From the sequence record PQ100635.1: a stretch of DNA of 64,000 nt; one strand, 5' to 3'. Shown here one piece after another: positions 29,343-49,272 of the stretch. How positions within the stretch are numbered: the first letter of the stretch is position 1; each line of letters starts with the position of its first letter. Below the pieces are notes generated by a model that worked only from the letters and a program-made list of their open reading frames with translations, was not told the origin of the DNA and made no database searches. The DNA is from Escherichia phage PNJ-9. The position numbers and the translations under genes were made by a program.

Positions 29343-29417
29343 GGCCCTGTAGCTCAATGGGAGAGCTGTCAGCTCATAACTGATAGGTAGCTGGATCGAA
29401 ACCAGCCAGGGTCACCA
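29343..29417 (+). tRNA. tRNA with CAT anticodon (Met, or lysidine-modified Ile)
   Basis: Hand-folded cloverleaf: acceptor GGCCCTG/CAGGGTC, D-arm GCTC-AATGGGA-GAGC, anticodon loop CTCATAA, T-arm GCTGG-ATCGAAA-CCAGC, 3' ACCA encoded. Confidence 0.75.
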
Positions 29418-29420
29418 ATC

Positions 29421-29497
<77 letters not shown>

Positions 29498-32442: not shown

Positions 32443-32464
32443 GGAGGACTCCGGTCCTCCTTTT
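32443..32464 (+). terminator. rho-independent terminator
   Basis: GGAGGAC-tccg-GTCCTCC followed by TTTT. Confidence 0.65.
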
Positions 32465-32483
32465 GGATAATAAAGGAGTTAAC

Positions 32484-33080
32484 ATGCGAAACCAAAATAA
32501 TGATATTGACTCAATGTTCGAAGAGTTCCGAGATAAGGTAAATCCACCTACGTCTTTAGTTGATTCATTACGATATGTTGCAACTGGACGTAAATGGTAC
32601 TGGTCGTCTTCTTATGAGACAACTGAATATGCAAATAACCGAAAATCTTTATTAGCCCCAGGTATTATGATTCATGATATCGGAGCTATTGCTAAACTAG
32701 TTGCAGACCATGATATTAGATTCACTGATTTCGTTGCTCCTACGTGGTCTGTTTGTTGTTTAAACACTGAATGGGAATATATCAGCGAACGCTCTGAAGA
32801 TTATTATGGTTTTAGAGACAAGCTTTTAAGGTCTAACATGTTTTATATTGATACAGAAGTTCTGGTCAATAATAAAAAATATTACTTTACGTTAATCGTC
32901 GATTCTGAAACTATGTATGAAGGCAAGCCTTTGCTTAAAAGAGTTGATGCTTTAAGTGCTATTGATGCGCTTTATGAAACTATGGTTGTTAGTCCTAATT
33001 TCACTAACAATTTAATCCTTGAGCAATTTATTATGGAATGTAGAGAATATGTCAAAGCCAACCCTATACATGCCAAGTAA
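32484..33080 (+). CDS. hypothetical early protein
   Basis: 198 aa from ATG 32484 (SD AAAGGAG; ORF track starts at TTG 32463). Confidence 0.5.
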   Translation: MRNQNNDIDSMFEEFRDKVNPPTSLVDSLRYVATGRKWYWSSSYETTEYANNRKSLLAPGIMIHDIGAIAKLVADHDIRFTDFVAPTWSVCCLNTEWEYISERSEDYYGFRDKLLRSNMFYIDTEVLVNNKKYYFTLIVDSETMYEGKPLLKRVDALSAIDALYETMVVSPNFTNNLILEQFIMECREYVKANPIHAK

Positions 33081-33444
33081 GCCCTGGGCGTATGAATACA
33101 AGCGTAAATTAATCCCAAATGAAGTACTATTTGGCCCTATTTTAGCTTTAGCGTTTTTAATCTTTATGATTATAGGAGCTATTTTAGATTCCAATAAAGT
33201 TATATCGTCTGATGCAGTGTTTTTACTTATTATACCCGGGTCGTTTATTGTACCATTTTTATTAATGCCTATTAACTGGGCAGGATATTGGTACCAAGGC
33301 CGTCATCACAGAGCTCGAGTTCGTGAGTGGAAAGTTCAGTGCGCAAAAGCCCAAGCTCAATATGATGAAGCTGTTAAAAAGTATGAATATGAAGAAGCTA
33401 TAGAATTCGTTAAGGAAATAAGATGCAAAAGCCTCAACTCTTAA
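33049..33444 (+). CDS. 2-TM membrane protein, FIKECR-tail family member 1
   Basis: Two hydrophobic helices, then a helical tail ending EEAIEFVKEIRCK; start at internal ATG 33049 is uncertain. Confidence 0.5.
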   Translation: MSKPTLYMPSKPWAYEYKRKLIPNEVLFGPILALAFLIFMIIGAILDSNKVISSDAVFLLIIPGSFIVPFLLMPINWAGYWYQGRHHRARVREWKVQCAKAQAQYDEAVKKYEYEEAIEFVKEIRCKSLNS

Positions 33445-33782
33445 CCGTATGGCCGTCTCTTGGTGAGAACATTCTAATTTTTATTATGAGTATTGGCATG
33501 GGATTTGCCTTTGGATTAGTTGGATTTCTTATTGACGGAGTTGTGTTAGGATTTATAGGGAATACAGGTGGATTCACAGACCAATGGCAGGACCTAAGAT
33601 ACACCCAAGCTTTTGCATCTATCGCATCATTTTGTACCGTAGTCTATTTTTACTACGATTTTATAAACCATAACAAGAAAAATAAAAAGGTTTACGCTTC
33701 TCAAATGATTAGTTATAATGAACTCCTAGCTAGACGTGAAAATGAAACAATAGAAAACTTTATTAAGGAATGTAGAAAATGA
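33423..33782 (+). CDS. 2-TM membrane protein, FIKECR-tail family member 2
   Basis: 119-aa ORF with two TM helices and C-terminal ETIENFIKECRK; overlaps both neighbours. Confidence 0.55.
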   Translation: MQKPQLLTVWPSLGENILIFIMSIGMGFAFGLVGFLIDGVVLGFIGNTGGFTDQWQDLRYTQAFASIASFCTVVYFYYDFINHNKKNKKVYASQMISYNELLARRENETIENFIKECRK

Positions 33783-34084
33783 GTAAGATTATTGAAATTA
33801 AAGTACCAGAGTTTAATGATGCCAAATCCGCTTCAGATGCAATTTATAAACTTCTGAATCAAGCTGAACGCATCGAAGAAGAAGCAACAAAGATCGCAGA
33901 CCAATATGCTGTATCATTTTCTGTAGGTGATTATGGTAGCGGTCGTACTTATTATCCTAAGGGTGAAATTGTATCCCAGTGGATGAAAGATGAAATTGAA
34001 AATAATGGTGGTGATGTTAAACGTGAAGGTAATGGTTACGTTATTACTGAAGGTGCTTGGGTTTCTTCTTCTGCGATGTGCTAA
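33779..34084 (+). CDS. small protein, W-SSS-C tail family member 1
   Basis: 101-aa ORF ending GAWVSSSAMC; N-terminal amphipathic helix; overlapping ATGA start. Confidence 0.55.
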   Translation: MSKIIEIKVPEFNDAKSASDAIYKLLNQAERIEEEATKIADQYAVSFSVGDYGSGRTYYPKGEIVSQWMKDEIENNGGDVKREGNGYVITEGAWVSSSAMC

Positions 34085-34093
34085 GGAATCATT

Positions 34094-34366
34094 ATGTCTA
34101 AAGAACAAACCGAACTGGCTGAAGCCGTAGCAAAAATCTATGCAGCTATTGAGGCTGCCAAAGAAATTGCTGATAAACAAAACACAACATTCGACTTGTA
34201 TCCAGCTTATGGTATGGGTGGAACCTATCATTCACCCGGACAACTTAAAGCCGATCTTGAACGTTGTACAAAAAACGGCTATGCTGAATGGGCTGACGTT
34301 TACCAATACGACTACAACCTGAGCCTCGAAACTGGTGGTTGGATTGCATCTTCTCACACTTGCTAA
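34094..34366 (+). CDS. small protein, W-SSS-C tail family member 2
   Basis: 90-aa ORF ending GGWIASSHTC; shares the Y-G-x-G-x-T-Y-x-x-P-G core with member 1. Confidence 0.55.
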   Translation: MSKEQTELAEAVAKIYAAIEAAKEIADKQNTTFDLYPAYGMGGTYHSPGQLKADLERCTKNGYAEWADVYQYDYNLSLETGGWIASSHTC

Positions 34367-34375
34367 GGAAACCAT

Positions 34376-34573
34376 ATGTCTCGTGAATTAGATTGTGCTG
34401 TACGTACGGCAGTAGCTGCTCTGGAAAACCTGTTCCAAATTGCAACAGAAGAACGCGAAGAAGTTACATTGTGGATTGAAGATAACGCAGGTCTGAATCT
34501 CCAGGACGCGATCTCATTATCCAATAATAGCATTACTGTTCAAGGCTGGGTATCATCTAGTTATTCTTGCTAA
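34376..34573 (+). CDS. small protein, W-SSS-C tail family member 3
   Basis: 65-aa ORF ending QGWVSSSYSC. Confidence 0.5.
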   Translation: MSRELDCAVRTAVAALENLFQIATEEREEVTLWIEDNAGLNLQDAISLSNNSITVQGWVSSSYSC

Positions 34574-34577
34574 AACA

Positions 34578-34607
34578 GTTTACAACAAGATAGGGCTATG
34601 TTATAGT
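34578..34607 (+). promoter_or_regulatory. T4-type early promoter
   Basis: GTTTAC 34578-34583, 18-nt spacer, TATAGT 34602-34607; ATAGGGCTA/TAGTCCTAT imperfect inverted repeat. Confidence 0.55.
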
Positions 34608-34635
34608 AGTCCTATCAAATTAAATGGAGTCCACA

Positions 34636-34875
34636 ATGATTTATTACGAAAGTGTTGGAACTAAAGTGGTTGCTAAAACCATTACTCGTGAAAAGTTTGC
34701 AAAGATATTCGATATGCGTTATAAAAAATCTGAACACAAAGGCATCCGATTCGAAGATGCGCACTGTACAATTTGTCCTTATAATGAAGACATAAACGGT
34801 ACAATCGTTCCATTGGTAGAGGCTTCACATGACGACCTCTGGGATGAATATAATATCGCATGTCGCGAAATTTAA
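34636..34875 (+). CDS. hypothetical early protein with Cys/His cluster
   Basis: ATG 34636 (SD GGAG 6 nt upstream); contains HCTICPYNED; 79 aa. Confidence 0.45.
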   Translation: MIYYESVGTKVVAKTITREKFAKIFDMRYKKSEHKGIRFEDAHCTICPYNEDINGTIVPLVEASHDDLWDEYNIACREI

Positions 34876-34900: not shown

Positions 34901-35857
34901 ATGATGTTAGTTATTGGTTCTCGTGCACTTCACTATCACAGTCTTATTGATTCTAACGCTATCAAAAATAGTGACTGGGACTTTATTGCAGACCAAGGTT
35001 CTTGGAATGCATTCAAAAATCAAATGATGGGTGTATATGTTCATCAAGATAACCCTGATGTCCAAGTTTTCAAATGCTTCCATAATGGACGCGAAACTCA
35101 TTTTGAAGCATATATTGTTCCGGCAATCACTAATGTCCGTGAATTAGTCGGTGAACTCACTCCTGAAGATTTCACGTCTTCTTATGACCTTTTAAAATAC
35201 GCCAAGAAAAATTTGACTAAAGACCGTTTGAACGGGTTTTACTGGGCAACTCCTGAGATATGTCTTGCAATTAAAATGTCTCATCGTTTCAAGAAAAATA
35301 ATCCATTCTTTTTAAAGACTATGAACCATATTCAGTATCTTCGTGGTAAAGGTGTTACACTGAACGATGAACTTACTGAAATTATGCTGAAACGCCAGAA
35401 AGAAACTTTGAACTATGCTCACCCAGTTCTTGACACTTCTAAAAGTGCGTTCTTTAAAGATGACATCTATACATATGACCATGATACTATTCACGAAGCC
35501 ATTGCACTAACAGACCGTCCGGCTTATACGTTTTACATGAAAGACGGTTCTGAAGTCATGACCTCACGCGAGAAGTTCGAATCGTTACCAGAAATGGTCA
35601 AATTGGCCGGCGTATATGAAGAATCATGTGTACTAGCGTTAGAACGTTCTCAGATTCCTAATAACTTTGAAATTAACCCTGAAGCCAGTTTCATGATGGC
35701 ATTAGAAAAAGTCTGCACAAGCATCACCTCCGGTTGGTTCCGTGAGTTCGCTTGGGAAAATTATAGCAAAGTAGTAAGTATGTATCAAAGCTTAGGACAC
35801 GACGATTACGTCAAGCGTTTCAAACAAAATTTTCATATGGTAAAACCTTTCAAATAA
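34901..35857 (+). CDS. hypothetical protein, weak nucleotidyltransferase-like N-terminal signature
   Basis: 318-aa ORF; N-terminus VIGSRALHYHSLIDSNAIKNSDWDFIAD (G-S ... D-x-D, but spacing longer than canonical). Confidence 0.55.
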   Translation: MMLVIGSRALHYHSLIDSNAIKNSDWDFIADQGSWNAFKNQMMGVYVHQDNPDVQVFKCFHNGRETHFEAYIVPAITNVRELVGELTPEDFTSSYDLLKYAKKNLTKDRLNGFYWATPEICLAIKMSHRFKKNNPFFLKTMNHIQYLRGKGVTLNDELTEIMLKRQKETLNYAHPVLDTSKSAFFKDDIYTYDHDTIHEAIALTDRPAYTFYMKDGSEVMTSREKFESLPEMVKLAGVYEESCVLALERSQIPNNFEINPEASFMMALEKVCTSITSGWFREFAWENYSKVVSMYQSLGHDDYVKRFKQNFHMVKPFK

Positions 35858-36195: not shown

Positions 36196-36501
36196 ATGAA
36201 ATTAACAGAAACCAACCGAATTGGTCTTTTAACAATACTTGCATCACCTTTTTACGCAGCCCTTTCTGTTGCAGTATTACAAAAGGCTTACGATATGGAT
36301 GGTGTTCCTGGTTTTATATTCTTATCGCCGTTTTTGCTATTCGTTGGAGCATTGTTATTATATGCCACGACTGGTTTCGACCATAATGTCTGGGTCAATT
36401 ATAAATGTAAATTGTCTGAAGAAGAACACGCAGAAGCTCGTAAAAAAGCTATTGAATCTACCAATCTAGAAAATTTCATTAAAGAATGTCGAGGAAAATA
36501 A
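36196..36501 (+). CDS. 2-TM membrane protein, FIKECR-tail family member 3
   Basis: 101-aa ORF with two TM helices and C-terminal ESTNLENFIKECRGK. Confidence 0.55.
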   Translation: MKLTETNRIGLLTILASPFYAALSVAVLQKAYDMDGVPGFIFLSPFLLFVGALLLYATTGFDHNVWVNYKCKLSEEEHAEARKKAIESTNLENFIKECRGK

Positions 36502-36502
36502 T

Positions 36503-37189
36503 ATGAATAGTTCTAAAGTGTTTAATAGTCAAGCTCGTGCAGTAGGTGGTTTTGCCGGCGGTATTTCTAATGATAAAATCAAGAACGAGCCTATGTTCTT
36601 CAACTGTAGTTTAGAATTTGCTTATAATAATGGCGGTCCTATTACTCGCTCTTTCATTATGAACTTGCCGGATGATTGGAACACCGACCAGGTTGTATTT
36701 GATTCACGAGTCCACATGCTGATGCCTGGTTGGTATCCTGCTATTCCTGGATATCACCATGATGACGTACCACGCCCAGATATTCCAACAGGACAACATT
36801 TTATTACTGCAGGACAACCTGATTATGACAACCCTCGTTACCATTCTGAACATATTCTTGGTCTTGTTAACGCTGATGTGTGTCCTACTCATTTTGCAAC
36901 AGGAACTGCAGAGTTCAGTCAGATTCCTGATGGCGAACTTATCTATCGCCAGTGGCACAAAGAAGTCCTCGAAAAAATCGAAAAAGGCGAACTAGAGAAA
37001 TGGGAAGCTCCGGACCGTACTCTTCTTCAGTTTGATTGGCAAACATGGCACACTGGTTCTCGTGCAATTAGTAATGGATGGCGGTGGTTCGGACGTGTAT
37101 CTCGTAATACAGACCGAGTTAAAAAGATTACCAATGAAATTCGTGTCAACGCCCAAGTTTATCTGGAATTCCCTATGGAAGGCTGGTAA
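36503..37189 (+). CDS. hypothetical early protein
   Basis: 228-aa ORF, Trp/His-rich (GWRWFGRVSR); no recognisable motif. Confidence 0.55.
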   Translation: MNSSKVFNSQARAVGGFAGGISNDKIKNEPMFFNCSLEFAYNNGGPITRSFIMNLPDDWNTDQVVFDSRVHMLMPGWYPAIPGYHHDDVPRPDIPTGQHFITAGQPDYDNPRYHSEHILGLVNADVCPTHFATGTAEFSQIPDGELIYRQWHKEVLEKIEKGELEKWEAPDRTLLQFDWQTWHTGSRAISNGWRWFGRVSRNTDRVKKITNEIRVNAQVYLEFPMEGW

Positions 37190-37668
37190 TGATTAACAAT
37201 AATATAGACGATGGCAATGAAGGTATTTCATACTATTCAGTAGATTGGACAGGATGTCCATCCTACTTAGTGAAACATATTTGCCAAGAATTTAAAATCG
37301 ACCAGCCAGCAGGTATTATCGTGAACAGATACATTAATGGATATCAACCTATCGATGAAGTAATACGAACAACTCAAGCTGAGCTTGAAAAGTTTTTCAA
37401 TAAGTGCCAATGGATAACAGGATGGATTATATTTGTACCGTCAGTGTGGTTTTTTAGTACTAAGGTGAGTTCTTTCGGTTTTGTTGATATTATTGCTATC
37501 TTATTAGCATCTAGTATCATAAGTGTTGTTGGTGGCATCATTGGCGGCGGTACCGCCGCCATCATTATTAATCTTGTTAAAAGTAGTTTACAGGAACGTA
37601 AAGACAAGATAAAGGCCAAGAATAATGAAGTTGAACGTTTTATTACCGAATGCAGGAATTTGAGATGA
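37189..37668 (+). CDS. 2-TM membrane protein, FIKECR-tail family member 4
   Basis: 159-aa ORF with hydrophobic helices (Gly-rich IISVVGGIIGGGTAAIIINLV) and C-terminal NNEVERFITECRNLR. Confidence 0.55.
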   Translation: MINNNIDDGNEGISYYSVDWTGCPSYLVKHICQEFKIDQPAGIIVNRYINGYQPIDEVIRTTQAELEKFFNKCQWITGWIIFVPSVWFFSTKVSSFGFVDIIAILLASSIISVVGGIIGGGTAAIIINLVKSSLQERKDKIKAKNNEVERFITECRNLR

Positions 37669-47812: not shown

Positions 47813-48286
47813 ATGATTATCAATGAAAACTCTTGGCACTTTAAAATTTATGCCGCGTTCAATAGTACATGGAATCGCCCTAAAACGTTGTGTGCTTATT
47901 TTTGGAAAACGTTAATCCCGGTATTGTCTGTTTCAATTATCGGATTTGCGATTTTAGCAGCAGTAACAATCATTGGCCAGGAAATTTTAACTAGATTCTT
48001 TGTTTTTAGCAGTCTATGGACATTAGTTCCAGCCTCAATTGGCGTAGGCATTTTAATGGTAGCAGTCATGGCTTTTATTTCTGCCGGGTTGGTAATTGGT
48101 CCGTCTTGGTTGTTAGACAAATATAACGACAGAAAATATTATAAAGAAATTGAGTTCATTGCACAAAACCAAGAACGAATTAAAAATGGACTTGAACCTA
48201 TTGAACGTAAGAAATCATTAATAGGTGAATACATTAAAGCTCGTAAAGAAAAAGTCTGTCCTACTCTTGAATATAAGGCTAAATGA
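47813..48286 (+). CDS. 2-TM membrane protein coupled to the nucleotidyltransferase-like gene
   Basis: 157-aa ORF with two long hydrophobic helices; its stop overlaps the next start (ATGATGA). Confidence 0.5.
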   Translation: MIINENSWHFKIYAAFNSTWNRPKTLCAYFWKTLIPVLSVSIIGFAILAAVTIIGQEILTRFFVFSSLWTLVPASIGVGILMVAVMAFISAGLVIGPSWLLDKYNDRKYYKEIEFIAQNQERIKNGLEPIERKKSLIGEYIKARKEKVCPTLEYKAK

Positions 48287-49272
48287 TGAAAACAATTATG
48301 AAAGGCTACTTTGGTAGCCACCTTTATGGAACGTCTACTCCTGAATCTGACGTCGATTTTAAAGAAATTTATGTCCCTCATGCTCGTGATATCTTGACCG
48401 GTAACGTTAAAGAACACATGAGCAAGAACACGAATAACACATCTTCTAAGAACACAAAAGACGACGTGGACCATGAGTTGTATAGTCTCAAATATTTCTT
48501 TAAACTAGCTGCGGACGGTGAAACAGTCGCATTAGATATGCTTCACACTCCACCAAGTTTAGTAGTTAAATCTGATTTGCCTGATGTATGGAAGTATATT
48601 CAAGATAACAGGTCTCGTTTCTATACCACTAACATGAAATCTTATTTAGGGTATGTCCGTAAGCAAGCTTCTAAATATGGTGTCAAGGGTTCTCGACTAG
48701 CTGTTCTTCGTCAAGCCCTTAAACGTTCTAATGAATGGGGACAATACTTTGATAATGGTGCAGTAATTCGTTTATCACATATGAAGAATGTTCTGCCTGT
48801 AGGTGAATTTGCTTCGTGGGTTGAAACTGAAAACGAGAAAACAGGTAAGCAAACATTCTATAATCTGTTAGACCGTAAATTCCAAGACACGTTAACCAAT
48901 AAAGAGTTCAATGCCATCCTTGTTAAACTGGAAGAGAACTATGGCGAACGTGCTCGTAAGGCAGAAGCTAACGAAGGTATTGACTGGAAAGCATTGAGTC
49001 ATGCATGTCGTGGTGGACTTCAATTATTGGAAATTTACAAAACAGGCGACCTGGTTTACCCACTTCAGGATGCTCCATTTATTCTCGATGTTAAGCTTGG
49101 TAAACATACGTTTAAAACTGTACAAGAATTCCTAGAAGATATCGTTGACCAAGTTGAACATGCGTCAGAACAAGCTGCCAAGAACGGTATGCAACAAAAA
49201 GTAGATATGAGTTTCTGGGATGATTTCCTTGAGCAAGTCTATCTCGAAAATCATAATTCTTACTATAAATAA
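48283..49272 (+). CDS. predicted Pol-beta-superfamily nucleotidyltransferase
   Basis: 329-aa ORF; N-terminal GSHLYGTSTPESDVDF fits the hG[GS]x9-13Dh[DE]h NTase signature. Confidence 0.6.
   Translation: MMKTIMKGYFGSHLYGTSTPESDVDFKEIYVPHARDILTGNVKEHMSKNTNNTSSKNTKDDVDHELYSLKYFFKLAADGETVALDMLHTPPSLVVKSDLPDVWKYIQDNRSRFYTTNMKSYLGYVRKQASKYGVKGSRLAVLRQALKRSNEWGQYFDNGAVIRLSHMKNVLPVGEFASWVETENEKTGKQTFYNLLDRKFQDTLTNKEFNAILVKLEENYGERARKAEANEGIDWKALSHACRGGLQLLEIYKTGDLVYPLQDAPFILDVKLGKHTFKTVQEFLEDIVDQVEHASEQAAKNGMQQKVDMSFWDDFLEQVYLENHNSYYK
49264..49271 (+). promoter_or_regulatory. T4-type late promoter (TATAAATA)
   Basis: Exact TATAAATA overlapping the NTase stop codon, 33 nt upstream of the 49304 ATG. 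Confidence 0.55.

What the first reader, a model, noticed from the sequence alone, without database searches (positions are those of the whole stretch)
34901..35857. 318-aa protein with a weak nucleotidyltransferase-like N-terminal signature
The N-terminus VIGSRALHYHSLIDSNAIKNSDWDFIAD contains a G-S followed by D-x-D, reminiscent of an NTase active site but with a longer spacer (about 17 residues) than canonical. It sits directly after the W-SSS-C triplet and before the third FIKECR-family gene. If real, this would be a second NTase-fold enzyme in the window.
Basis: inference. Interest (0 to 1): 0.45.

Follow-up and report, generated by a model that had tools for sequence, protein, structure and literature searches.

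The report
Phage nucleotidyltransferase with tail-tagged partner proteins
The 318-aa ORF is a real, almost certainly active nucleotide-transferring enzyme of a phage-only family, and across very different phages it is preceded by one to six small acidic proteins that all end in the same W-x-x-S-S-(x-x)-C tail, which suggests an undescribed enzyme-plus-substrate (or enzyme-plus-regulator) module.

Summary

The new result is genetic linkage. The reciprocal test gave 6/6 and an independent set gave 5/5. Their tail is predicted to be exposed. Neither family has a published function, and both appear to be phage-restricted.

Best guess (about 0.4): the enzyme nucleotidylylates a tail serine of these proteins. 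Main rival: a MenT-like RNA-end transferase held in check by antitoxin-like partners. I rate it a new variant of a known enzyme kind, with moderately high interest.

The parts
34901..35857 (+). Gene for the 318-aa NTase (DUF7277+DUF7275; PHROG 2141; RB69ORF134c homologue), stop codon included
   Evidence: ORF and RBS. Pfam DUF7277 9e-28 and DUF7275 4e-79. PHROG 2141 5e-150. 100% identical to Escherichia phage PNJ-6 and present in 733 phage records. RB69 name.
34901..35215 (+). N-terminal Pol-beta-type nucleotidyltransferase domain (aa 1-105)
34916..34921 (+). G6-S7, NTase motif I (hG[GS])
   Evidence: G in 150/151 and S in 146/151 (+3 G) of diverse representatives; invariant in alignment A1.
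34973..34981 (+). D25-W-D27, NTase motif II ([DE]h[DE]h), the metal-binding carboxylates
   Evidence: D25 in 149/151 (+2 E) and D27 in 151/151. Retained even in the short Gordonia and Vibrio phage variants.
35105..35107 (+). E69, candidate third catalytic carboxylate (h[DE]h) on strand 64-73
   Evidence: E in 132 and D in 17 of 151; strand assignment.
35243..35854 (+). C-terminal all-helical domain (DUF7275, aa ~115-318). Invariant residues: K125, H128, K139, F184, H194-D195-x-x-H198, P207, E240-E241, E248-R249, K270, C272, S274, T276-S277-G278, R281
33779..34084 (+). Partner gene 1: 101-aa acidic protein ending ...GAWVSSSAMC (PHROG 899; RB69ORF138c/139c)
34094..34366 (+). Partner gene 2: 90-aa acidic protein ending ...GGWIASSHTC (PHROG 899; RB69ORF137c)
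   Evidence: Model pLDDT 86.3 with the last five residues as a coil tail. No fold match.
34376..34573 (+). Partner gene 3: 65-aa acidic protein ending ...QGWVSSSYSC (PHROG 4882; RB69ORF136c)
34624..34875 (+). Intervening 83-aa ORF (PHROG 3723; RB69ORF135c). It is lineage-specific and not part of the conserved module.
   Evidence: The ORFs immediately upstream of the NTase in other lineages are unrelated to it. It is not among the multi-lineage neighbour clusters.
34579..34607 (+). Early-promoter-like site (TTTACA-17-TATAGT) ahead of the 83-aa ORF and the NTase gene
   Evidence: Consensus scan, 10/12 matches. This is a pattern match only.

Best explanation
The ORF encodes a catalytically competent Pol-beta-superfamily nucleotidyltransferase. 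Its core is structurally closest to the MenT/AbiEii, ANT(2'') and LnuA group, and it is fused to a family-specific all-helical domain (DUF7275). It is the enzyme component of a phage-restricted two-part module. The other part is an array of 1-6 small acidic proteins (about 60-120 aa) made of a long N-terminal helix, an invariant YGMGG turn and a strand carrying Trp, and ending in an exposed C-terminal tail W-x-x-S-S-(x-x)-C-COOH. The most likely mechanism is that the enzyme binds an NTP with Mg2+ through D25, D27 and E69 and transfers the NMP onto a hydroxyl of the invariant tail serines of these partner proteins, that is, protein O-nucleotidylylation. The conserved basic and histidine-rich face of DUF7275 would dock the acidic partner and its tail. 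What is shown: the fold, the conservation of the catalytic residues, the genetic linkage and its polarity, and the predicted exposure of the tail. What is inferred: physical interaction, serine as the acceptor, and the biological purpose (probably maturation or switching of small early-expressed effector proteins).
Against: There is no direct evidence of interaction or of any modification. The closest structural relatives act on tRNA 3' ends (MenT1/3/4; PMC7450476, PMC10435456) or on small molecules (ANT(2''), LnuA), not on proteins. The layout of a small upstream gene followed by the NTase is also the layout of MenAT and AbiE toxin-antitoxin pairs. Serine nucleotidylylation does not explain why the terminal Cys and the Trp are invariant. 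In this window the partners are separated from the enzyme gene by a promoter-like site and an unrelated ORF, so co-translation is not required. Short-form relatives exist without partners, so the catalytic core can work without them.
Confidence: 0.4

Rival explanations
1. MenT/AbiEii-like RNA-end transferase with antitoxin-like partners. The enzyme adds nucleotides to tRNA or other RNA 3' ends, for example to disable selected host tRNAs while the phage supplies its own. The small acidic proteins are inhibitors or regulators that plug the active site with their tail or mimic nucleic acid.
Against: None of 46 members matches Pfam AbiEii/DUF1814 even at E<=5. One to six diverged partner copies per enzyme is unusual for a toxin-antitoxin pair. 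The enzyme family is near neutral (median pI 6.4), whereas MenT3/4 show electropositive RNA-binding surfaces (PMC7450476). The family is confined to lytic-type large phages rather than cellular genomes. The partner fold matches no antitoxin in the PDB.
Confidence: 0.2
2. Small-molecule nucleotidyltransferase of the ANT(2'')/LnuA type. The enzyme nucleotidylylates a metabolite, antibiotic or signalling nucleotide, and the small proteins are carriers, sensors or functionally separate neighbours.
Against: This reading leaves the very strong, polar and reciprocal linkage to the tail proteins unexplained. The NAD-gene linkage is loose and variable in position. There is no match to the Pfam aminoglycoside or lincosamide NTase families.
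Confidence: 0.1
3. RiPP-like tail maturation (an extension of the best explanation). Nucleotidylylation activates a tail Ser as a leaving group, elimination gives dehydroalanine, and the invariant terminal Cys thiol adds to form a thioether ring. DUF7275 would supply the elimination or cyclisation chemistry.
For: The invariant pairing of Ser-Ser with a terminal Cys at fixed spacing, in two tail registers. Several diverged 'precursor' genes precede a single enzyme gene. DUF7275 carries H194-D195-x-x-H198 on one helix plus E240-E241, H128 and C272, a plausible metal or acid-base site. That Ser activation followed by elimination and Cys addition is how lanthipeptides are made comes from my own knowledge and was not tested here.
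Confidence: 0.1
4. Divergent fused MNT-HEPN-type protein. The N-terminal NTase regulates a C-terminal HEPN-like RNase domain by self-AMPylation, as in FhepTA.
For: Similar size and order of domains (FhepTA is 276 aa with MNT then HEPN; PMC13000451). Most family members carry R129-[YF]-x5-H136, which formally fits Rx4-6H with an adjacent Tyr. There is a weak profile hit to the RNase L KEN region, E=0.23.
Confidence: 0.05
5. Chance motif or inactive pseudo-enzyme.
For: The bare pattern occurs somewhere in 9% of shuffled sequences.
Against: All three carboxylates and G-S are near-invariant across 151 representatives at 35-73% identity. The model is confident and has the NTase fold.
Confidence: 0.02

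Closest known systems
MenT toxins / AbiEii (DUF1814 NTases) with MenA/AbiEi antitoxins
   Different: No sequence-level membership (no PF08843 hit). The helical domain is about 200 aa, much larger, and has its own invariant residues. There are 1-6 partner copies with a conserved C-terminal tail unrelated to the known MenA or AbiEi antitoxins. The family occurs in phages rather than cellular genomes. The enzyme is near neutral rather than electropositive.
HepT/MntA (HEPN-MNT, type VII TA) and fused FhepTA
   Same: The functional logic I favour is the same: a minimal Pol-beta NTase transfers AMP onto a hydroxyl of a co-encoded partner protein (PMC7641770, PMC11586414). A fused NTase-plus-helical-domain form of similar length exists (PMC13000451).
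   Different: No Pfam MNT or HEPN hits and no MNT or HEPN structural match. The acceptor there is a Tyr next to the RNase motif, whereas here the candidate is a Ser-Ser in a C-terminal tail. The partners here are not HEPN proteins.
ANT(2'')-Ia and LnuA antibiotic nucleotidyltransferases
   Different: Those are about 160-180 aa enzymes acting on small molecules, with no DUF7275 domain and no partner proteins, and there is no sequence-family match.
Pfam DUF7277 + DUF7275 / PHROG 2141
   Same: The protein is a full-length member, as are the relatives in all reciprocal loci.
   Different: These entries carry no function. One GenBank record (Acinetobacter phage Berthold) already labels a homologue 'putative nucleotidyltransferase'. 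I found no record or paper noting the link to the tail proteins.
RlaP-family NTase in the same window (48283-49272)
   Same: It is also a Pol-beta NTase with an N-terminal GS...DxD motif (GSHLYGTSTPESDVD).
   Different: It belongs to a different Pfam family (PF10127, RNA-repair associated), has the canonical 11-residue spacer, and has no tail-protein neighbours.

Membership tests
Pol-beta nucleotidyltransferase superfamily | Motif I: hG[GS] at the turn between strand 1 and the following helix | tested here: met
   V-I-G6-S7 follows strand 2-5 and precedes helix 6-12. G in 150/151 and S in 146/151.
Pol-beta nucleotidyltransferase superfamily | Motif II: [DE]h[DE]h on strand 2 (two metal-binding carboxylates) | tested here: met
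   D25-W-D27-F at the start of strand 26-31. D25 in 149/151 and D27 in 151/151.
Pol-beta nucleotidyltransferase superfamily | Motif III: third carboxylate (h[DE]h) on a later strand | tested here: met
   F-E69-A in strand 64-73. E or D in 149/151.
Pol-beta nucleotidyltransferase superfamily | Alpha/beta NTase fold | tested here: met
Pol-beta nucleotidyltransferase superfamily | Nucleotidyl-transfer activity | not testable with these tools
   This needs an enzyme assay.
DUF1814 / AbiEii / MenT toxin family | Sequence membership (Pfam PF08843 AbiEii) | tested here: not met
   No hit in any of 46 family members at E<=5.
DUF1814 / AbiEii / MenT toxin family | Family-specific C-terminal motif IV with catalytic Lys and Asp (MenT3 K189 and D211; PMC7450476) | tested here: inconclusive
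DUF1814 / AbiEii / MenT toxin family | Toxicity neutralised by a cognate upstream antitoxin; tRNA 3'-end extension | not testable with these tools
   Upstream small partner genes exist, but they resemble no solved antitoxin structure. The activity is unknown.
HEPN-MNT / FhepTA | HEPN domain with a conserved Rx4-6H RNase motif | tested here: not met
HD-domain phosphohydrolase (as in the bacterial CCA enzyme or GlnD C-terminal domains) | H...HD...D metal motif on the HD fold | tested here: not met
Pfam DUF7277 + DUF7275 (PHROG 2141) | Scores above the gathering threshold for both domains | tested here: met
   97.2 and 265.4 bits against a cut-off of 27. PHROG 2141 at 5e-150 over its full length.
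Proposed module: NTase-DUF7275 plus W-x-x-S-S-(x-x)-C tail proteins | One or more tail proteins encoded upstream on the same strand | tested here: met
   Three copies at 33779-34573, the only ones in the 64 kb. The same arrangement is found in 17/19 lineages, in 6/6 reciprocal loci and in 5/5 independent loci.

The most novel reading that the evidence does not exclude
A widespread, phage-only post-translational pathway that has not been described. A MenT-like nucleotidyltransferase with a novel helical domain covalently modifies the exposed W-x-x-S-S-(x-x)-C C-terminal tail of arrays of small early proteins. This could be stable O-nucleotidylylation or oligonucleotidylylation, giving protein-nucleotide conjugates. 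Alternatively it could be Ser activation followed by elimination and attack by the terminal Cys, giving a lanthionine-like ring. Either way it would create matured effector proteins used against the host.
Probability: 0.3. Interest if true: 0.85.

Novelty: new variant of a known kind. Interest (0 to 1): 0.62.

Why it matters
The enzyme family is large (about 1,600 clusters at 50% identity) and spans T4-like, jumbo, Otagovirus-like and Myxococcus phages, yet it is listed only as two domains of unknown function. Assigning the NTase fold and conserved active site gives it a testable chemistry. The strict linkage to a second uncharacterised family, small proteins with an invariant C-terminal tail, provides a concrete candidate substrate or regulator. 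That turns two sets of hypothetical genes in the hyperplastic regions of model phages such as RB69 into a single simple experiment: co-expression followed by mass spectrometry. If the tail is modified, this would be a new kind of phage-encoded protein modification, with possible uses as an enzymatic C-terminal tagging system. If the partners are inhibitors, it would be the first MenT-like toxin-antitoxin logic found to be used by lytic phages.

Tried and rejected
1. Immediately upstream ORF as a conserved antitoxin. The ORFs directly upstream in the window, Berthold, Cucurbita and K408 share no similarity, so I rejected this. The conserved partners are the tail proteins further upstream.
2. 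Sequence-level assignment to known NTase families. Pfam scans of 46 members at E<=5 gave only DUF7277/DUF7275 plus noise. NCBIfam gave nothing. PADLOC gave only a chance Cas8b hit. A PDB profile search gave only RNase L at E=0.23 and PsaB.
4. HEPN reading. The window protein lacks the His of the Rx6H pattern.
5. tRNA linkage. tRNA genes lie 5.4 kb away in the window and 1.2 kb away in Gordonia phage Cucurbita, but this is not a recurrent tight neighbour.
6. NAD-salvage linkage. NAMPT-like and PRPP-synthetase-like genes occur in 4-5 lineages at variable distance and on either side, which I judged to be loose synteny.
7. The search for related loci with the small-protein alignment failed because no stretch was conserved enough. 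Degenerate DNA patterns for the tail were either too narrow or too unspecific, so I used a protein-profile search plus contig look-ups instead.
9. Literature searches for the DUF, PHROG and RB69ORF names found nothing.
10. An early upstream/downstream count assumed a fixed NTase start; I corrected it.

Full report
**Context.** The window is a Mosigvirus (RB69-type T-even phage). The ORF is 100% identical at protein level to a hypothetical protein of Escherichia phage PNJ-6 and corresponds to RB69ORF134c. It lies in the early, hyperplastic tRNA-to-e region, with tRNA-Met and tRNA-Arg at 29343-29497 and nudE, e and denV downstream. Relative to T4, where e.2 and e.3 are adjacent, RB69-type phages carry an inserted block between them (RB69ORF132c-139c) that contains this gene.

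**Observation check.** The ORF runs from 34901 to 35857 (318 aa) with a GAGGA ribosome-binding site. The bare pattern is uncommon at an N-terminus: it appears in 0.7% of shuffles and in 3 of 58 long + strand ORFs, one of which is a true RlaP NTase. Conservation is the stronger argument. In 46 homologues, G6, S7, D25, D27 and E69 are invariant. In 151 sequences at 35-73% identity to the window protein they are kept in 150, 146 (+3 G), 149 (+2 E), 151 and 132 (+17 D). The spacer ranges from 10 to 28 residues with a mode of 15, so 17 is ordinary here. Very distant short homologues in Gordonia and Vibrio phages also keep GS...DxD.

**Family size and range.** tblastn finds the gene in 733 of 50,697 phage records from Escherichia, Acinetobacter, Aeromonas, Pseudomonas, Vibrio, Klebsiella, Gordonia, Streptomyces and other phages. 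An exhaustive profile search finds 1,593 clusters at 50% identity, and the best 150 are all about 300 aa with the same two domains. In one genome for each of 185,579 prokaryotic species only five loci were found, all on MAG contigs. That scan relies on two conserved peptides, so it is a lower bound. The family looks phage-restricted.

**The conserved partner.** I collected 84 loci (80 viral contigs, three GenBank phages and the window), called ORFs within 6 kb on each side, and clustered them. A regex independent of clustering (W-x-x-S-x-x-x-C at the end of a stop-to-stop frame) gives 171 hits on the NTase strand and 4 on the opposite strand. Ser at -4 (137/144), Ser at -6 (99/144) and Gly at -10 (80/144) were not imposed by the regex but are conserved. 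A second register, W-x-x-S-S-C, gives 50 against 4 and covers the two full-length lineages that lacked the long form. With each locus's true NTase position, 216 copies lie upstream (plus 4 abutting the start) and 1 downstream, with 479 kb and 482 kb scanned. That covers 17/19 lineages and 77/84 loci, with 1-6 copies per locus and the nearest copy a median of 346 bp upstream. In the whole 64-kb window the only three such ORFs are 33779-34084, 34094-34366 and 34376-34573, and the T4 tRNA-e fragment has none. The two lineages without partners are the short-form enzymes (Gordonia phage Cucurbita gp15 and Vibrio phage K408), which also lack R129, R165, H174, C272, S277 and R281.

**Reciprocal and independent tests.** A profile of the small proteins retrieves 452 proteins, all short, with no Pfam domain, from phages including Xanthomonas XbC2, Pseudomonas phiPsa315/psageK4/REC and Myxococcus Mx1. 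For six divergent members I looked up the encoding contigs. In all six a DUF7277/DUF7275 gene follows on the same strand within about 20-1000 bp. The five genome-contig loci, which played no part in defining the motif, all have tail ORFs upstream on the same strand.

**Mechanism.** Three things are shown: an NTase fold with a conserved active site, a strict polar linkage to proteins with an invariant tail, and predicted exposure of that tail. NTase-fold enzymes transfer NMP to hydroxyl groups. Precedents for a co-encoded protein acceptor are MntA on HepT (PMC7641770, PMC11586414, PMC13000451), and an NTase tailors the C-terminal Ser of a lasso peptide (PMC8498205). The variable number of diverged paralogues sharing one tail looks more like a set of substrates than a 1:1 antitoxin. 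The near-neutral enzyme (median pI 6.4) paired with acidic partners does not suggest an RNA substrate. I therefore favour nucleotidylylation of the tail serines, at about 0.4. The main rival, at about 0.2, follows from the structural neighbours: a MenT-like RNA 3'-end transferase (PMC7450476, PMC10435456) with the small proteins acting as antitoxin-like inhibitors. The gene order is the same as in MenAT1. Less likely are a small-molecule NTase (0.1), an RiPP-like Ser activation followed by thioether formation with the terminal Cys (0.1; it would explain the invariant Cys but has no fold support), a divergent fused MNT-HEPN protein (0.05), and a pseudo-enzyme (0.02).

**Novelty.** The NTase resemblance has been noted at least once: a homologue in Acinetobacter phage Berthold is annotated 'putative nucleotidyltransferase'. 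The fold assignment alone would therefore be a new member of a known kind. The distinctive DUF7275 domain and the obligate association with tail-tagged small proteins make it a new variant, and I found neither described anywhere.

Noticed in passing
window 48283-49272 (+): A 329-aa ORF starting with GSHLYGTSTPESDVD is an RlaP-family Pol-beta NTase (PF10127, 'RNA repair pathway DNA polymerase beta family', E 7.7e-13).
   Followed up: partly
window 32463-33080, 33019-33444, 33423-33782, 36196-36501, 37189-37668 (+): The 'FIKECR' family flanking the module corresponds to the RB69/T4 genes annotated e.5, e.4, e.3, RB69ORF133c and e.2 (e.2-e.4 are predicted membrane proteins). All end in a conserved [FV]-[IV]-x-E-[CI]-R-type C-terminal motif. 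The NTase/tail-protein block is inserted between e.3 and e.2 relative to T4.
   Followed up: partly
L088 8367-9146 (Xanthomonas phage XbC2); also L041, L048, L054, L056-L058, L085 and others: A calcineurin-like metallophosphatase gene (PF00149) lies 150-530 bp downstream of the NTase gene in 8 of the 14 loci (3 lineages) that carry it. It could be an eraser of a phospho- or nucleotidyl modification.
   Followed up: no
L004, L035, L036, L039, L042, L076, L079, L081: NAMPT-like and PRPP-synthetase-like (NAD-salvage type) genes lie 0.5-4.3 kb from the NTase gene in 4-5 lineages, on either side. NudE is 2 kb downstream in the window. I judged this to be loose synteny.
   Followed up: partly
L007-L020, L035-L042, L071 etc. 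(cluster 10 proteins), e.g. L008 4890-5117: A subfamily of the small proteins carries the motif twice: an internal D-W-L-N-S-S-C followed by Y-G-E, plus the terminal W-x-x-S-S-C. The internal copy occupies the place of the segment before YGMGG in the main subfamily, which hints at a pseudo-repeat or a pair of Cys residues.
   Followed up: no
L094 4235-4541 (RB69 69734-70040): In the RB69 reference record the 101-aa tail protein is annotated as two short overlapping ORFs (ORF138c and ORF139c). This suggests a frameshift or sequencing error in RB69, or decay of that copy.
   Followed up: no
P0277 (134 aa): One metagenomic small protein continues past ...GWAASSQSC into a second helix-plus-tail unit ending CVWDHSGCAF. 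It is either a natural tandem fusion or a read-through of two adjacent partner genes.
   Followed up: no
L088 782-3571 and L091 3967-4614: RNA ligase (Rnl1 or RNA_ligase) and PNKP genes lie 1.4-5 kb upstream of the module in jumbo phages. PNKP-like genes recur in 9 loci of 2 lineages. This may be relevant to the RNA-end rival.
   Followed up: no
window 36503-37189 (+): A 228-aa ORF (RB69ORF132c) downstream of the module has no Pfam match. It is a neighbour of the NTase in 24 loci, but these span only 2 lineages.
   Followed up: no
L086 2065-3206 (Myxococcus phage Mx1): A Macro-domain gene and a HopBF1-like kinase gene lie 3-4 kb upstream of the module in Mx1. Both are other protein- or nucleotide-modifying enzymes in the same early region.
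   Followed up: no
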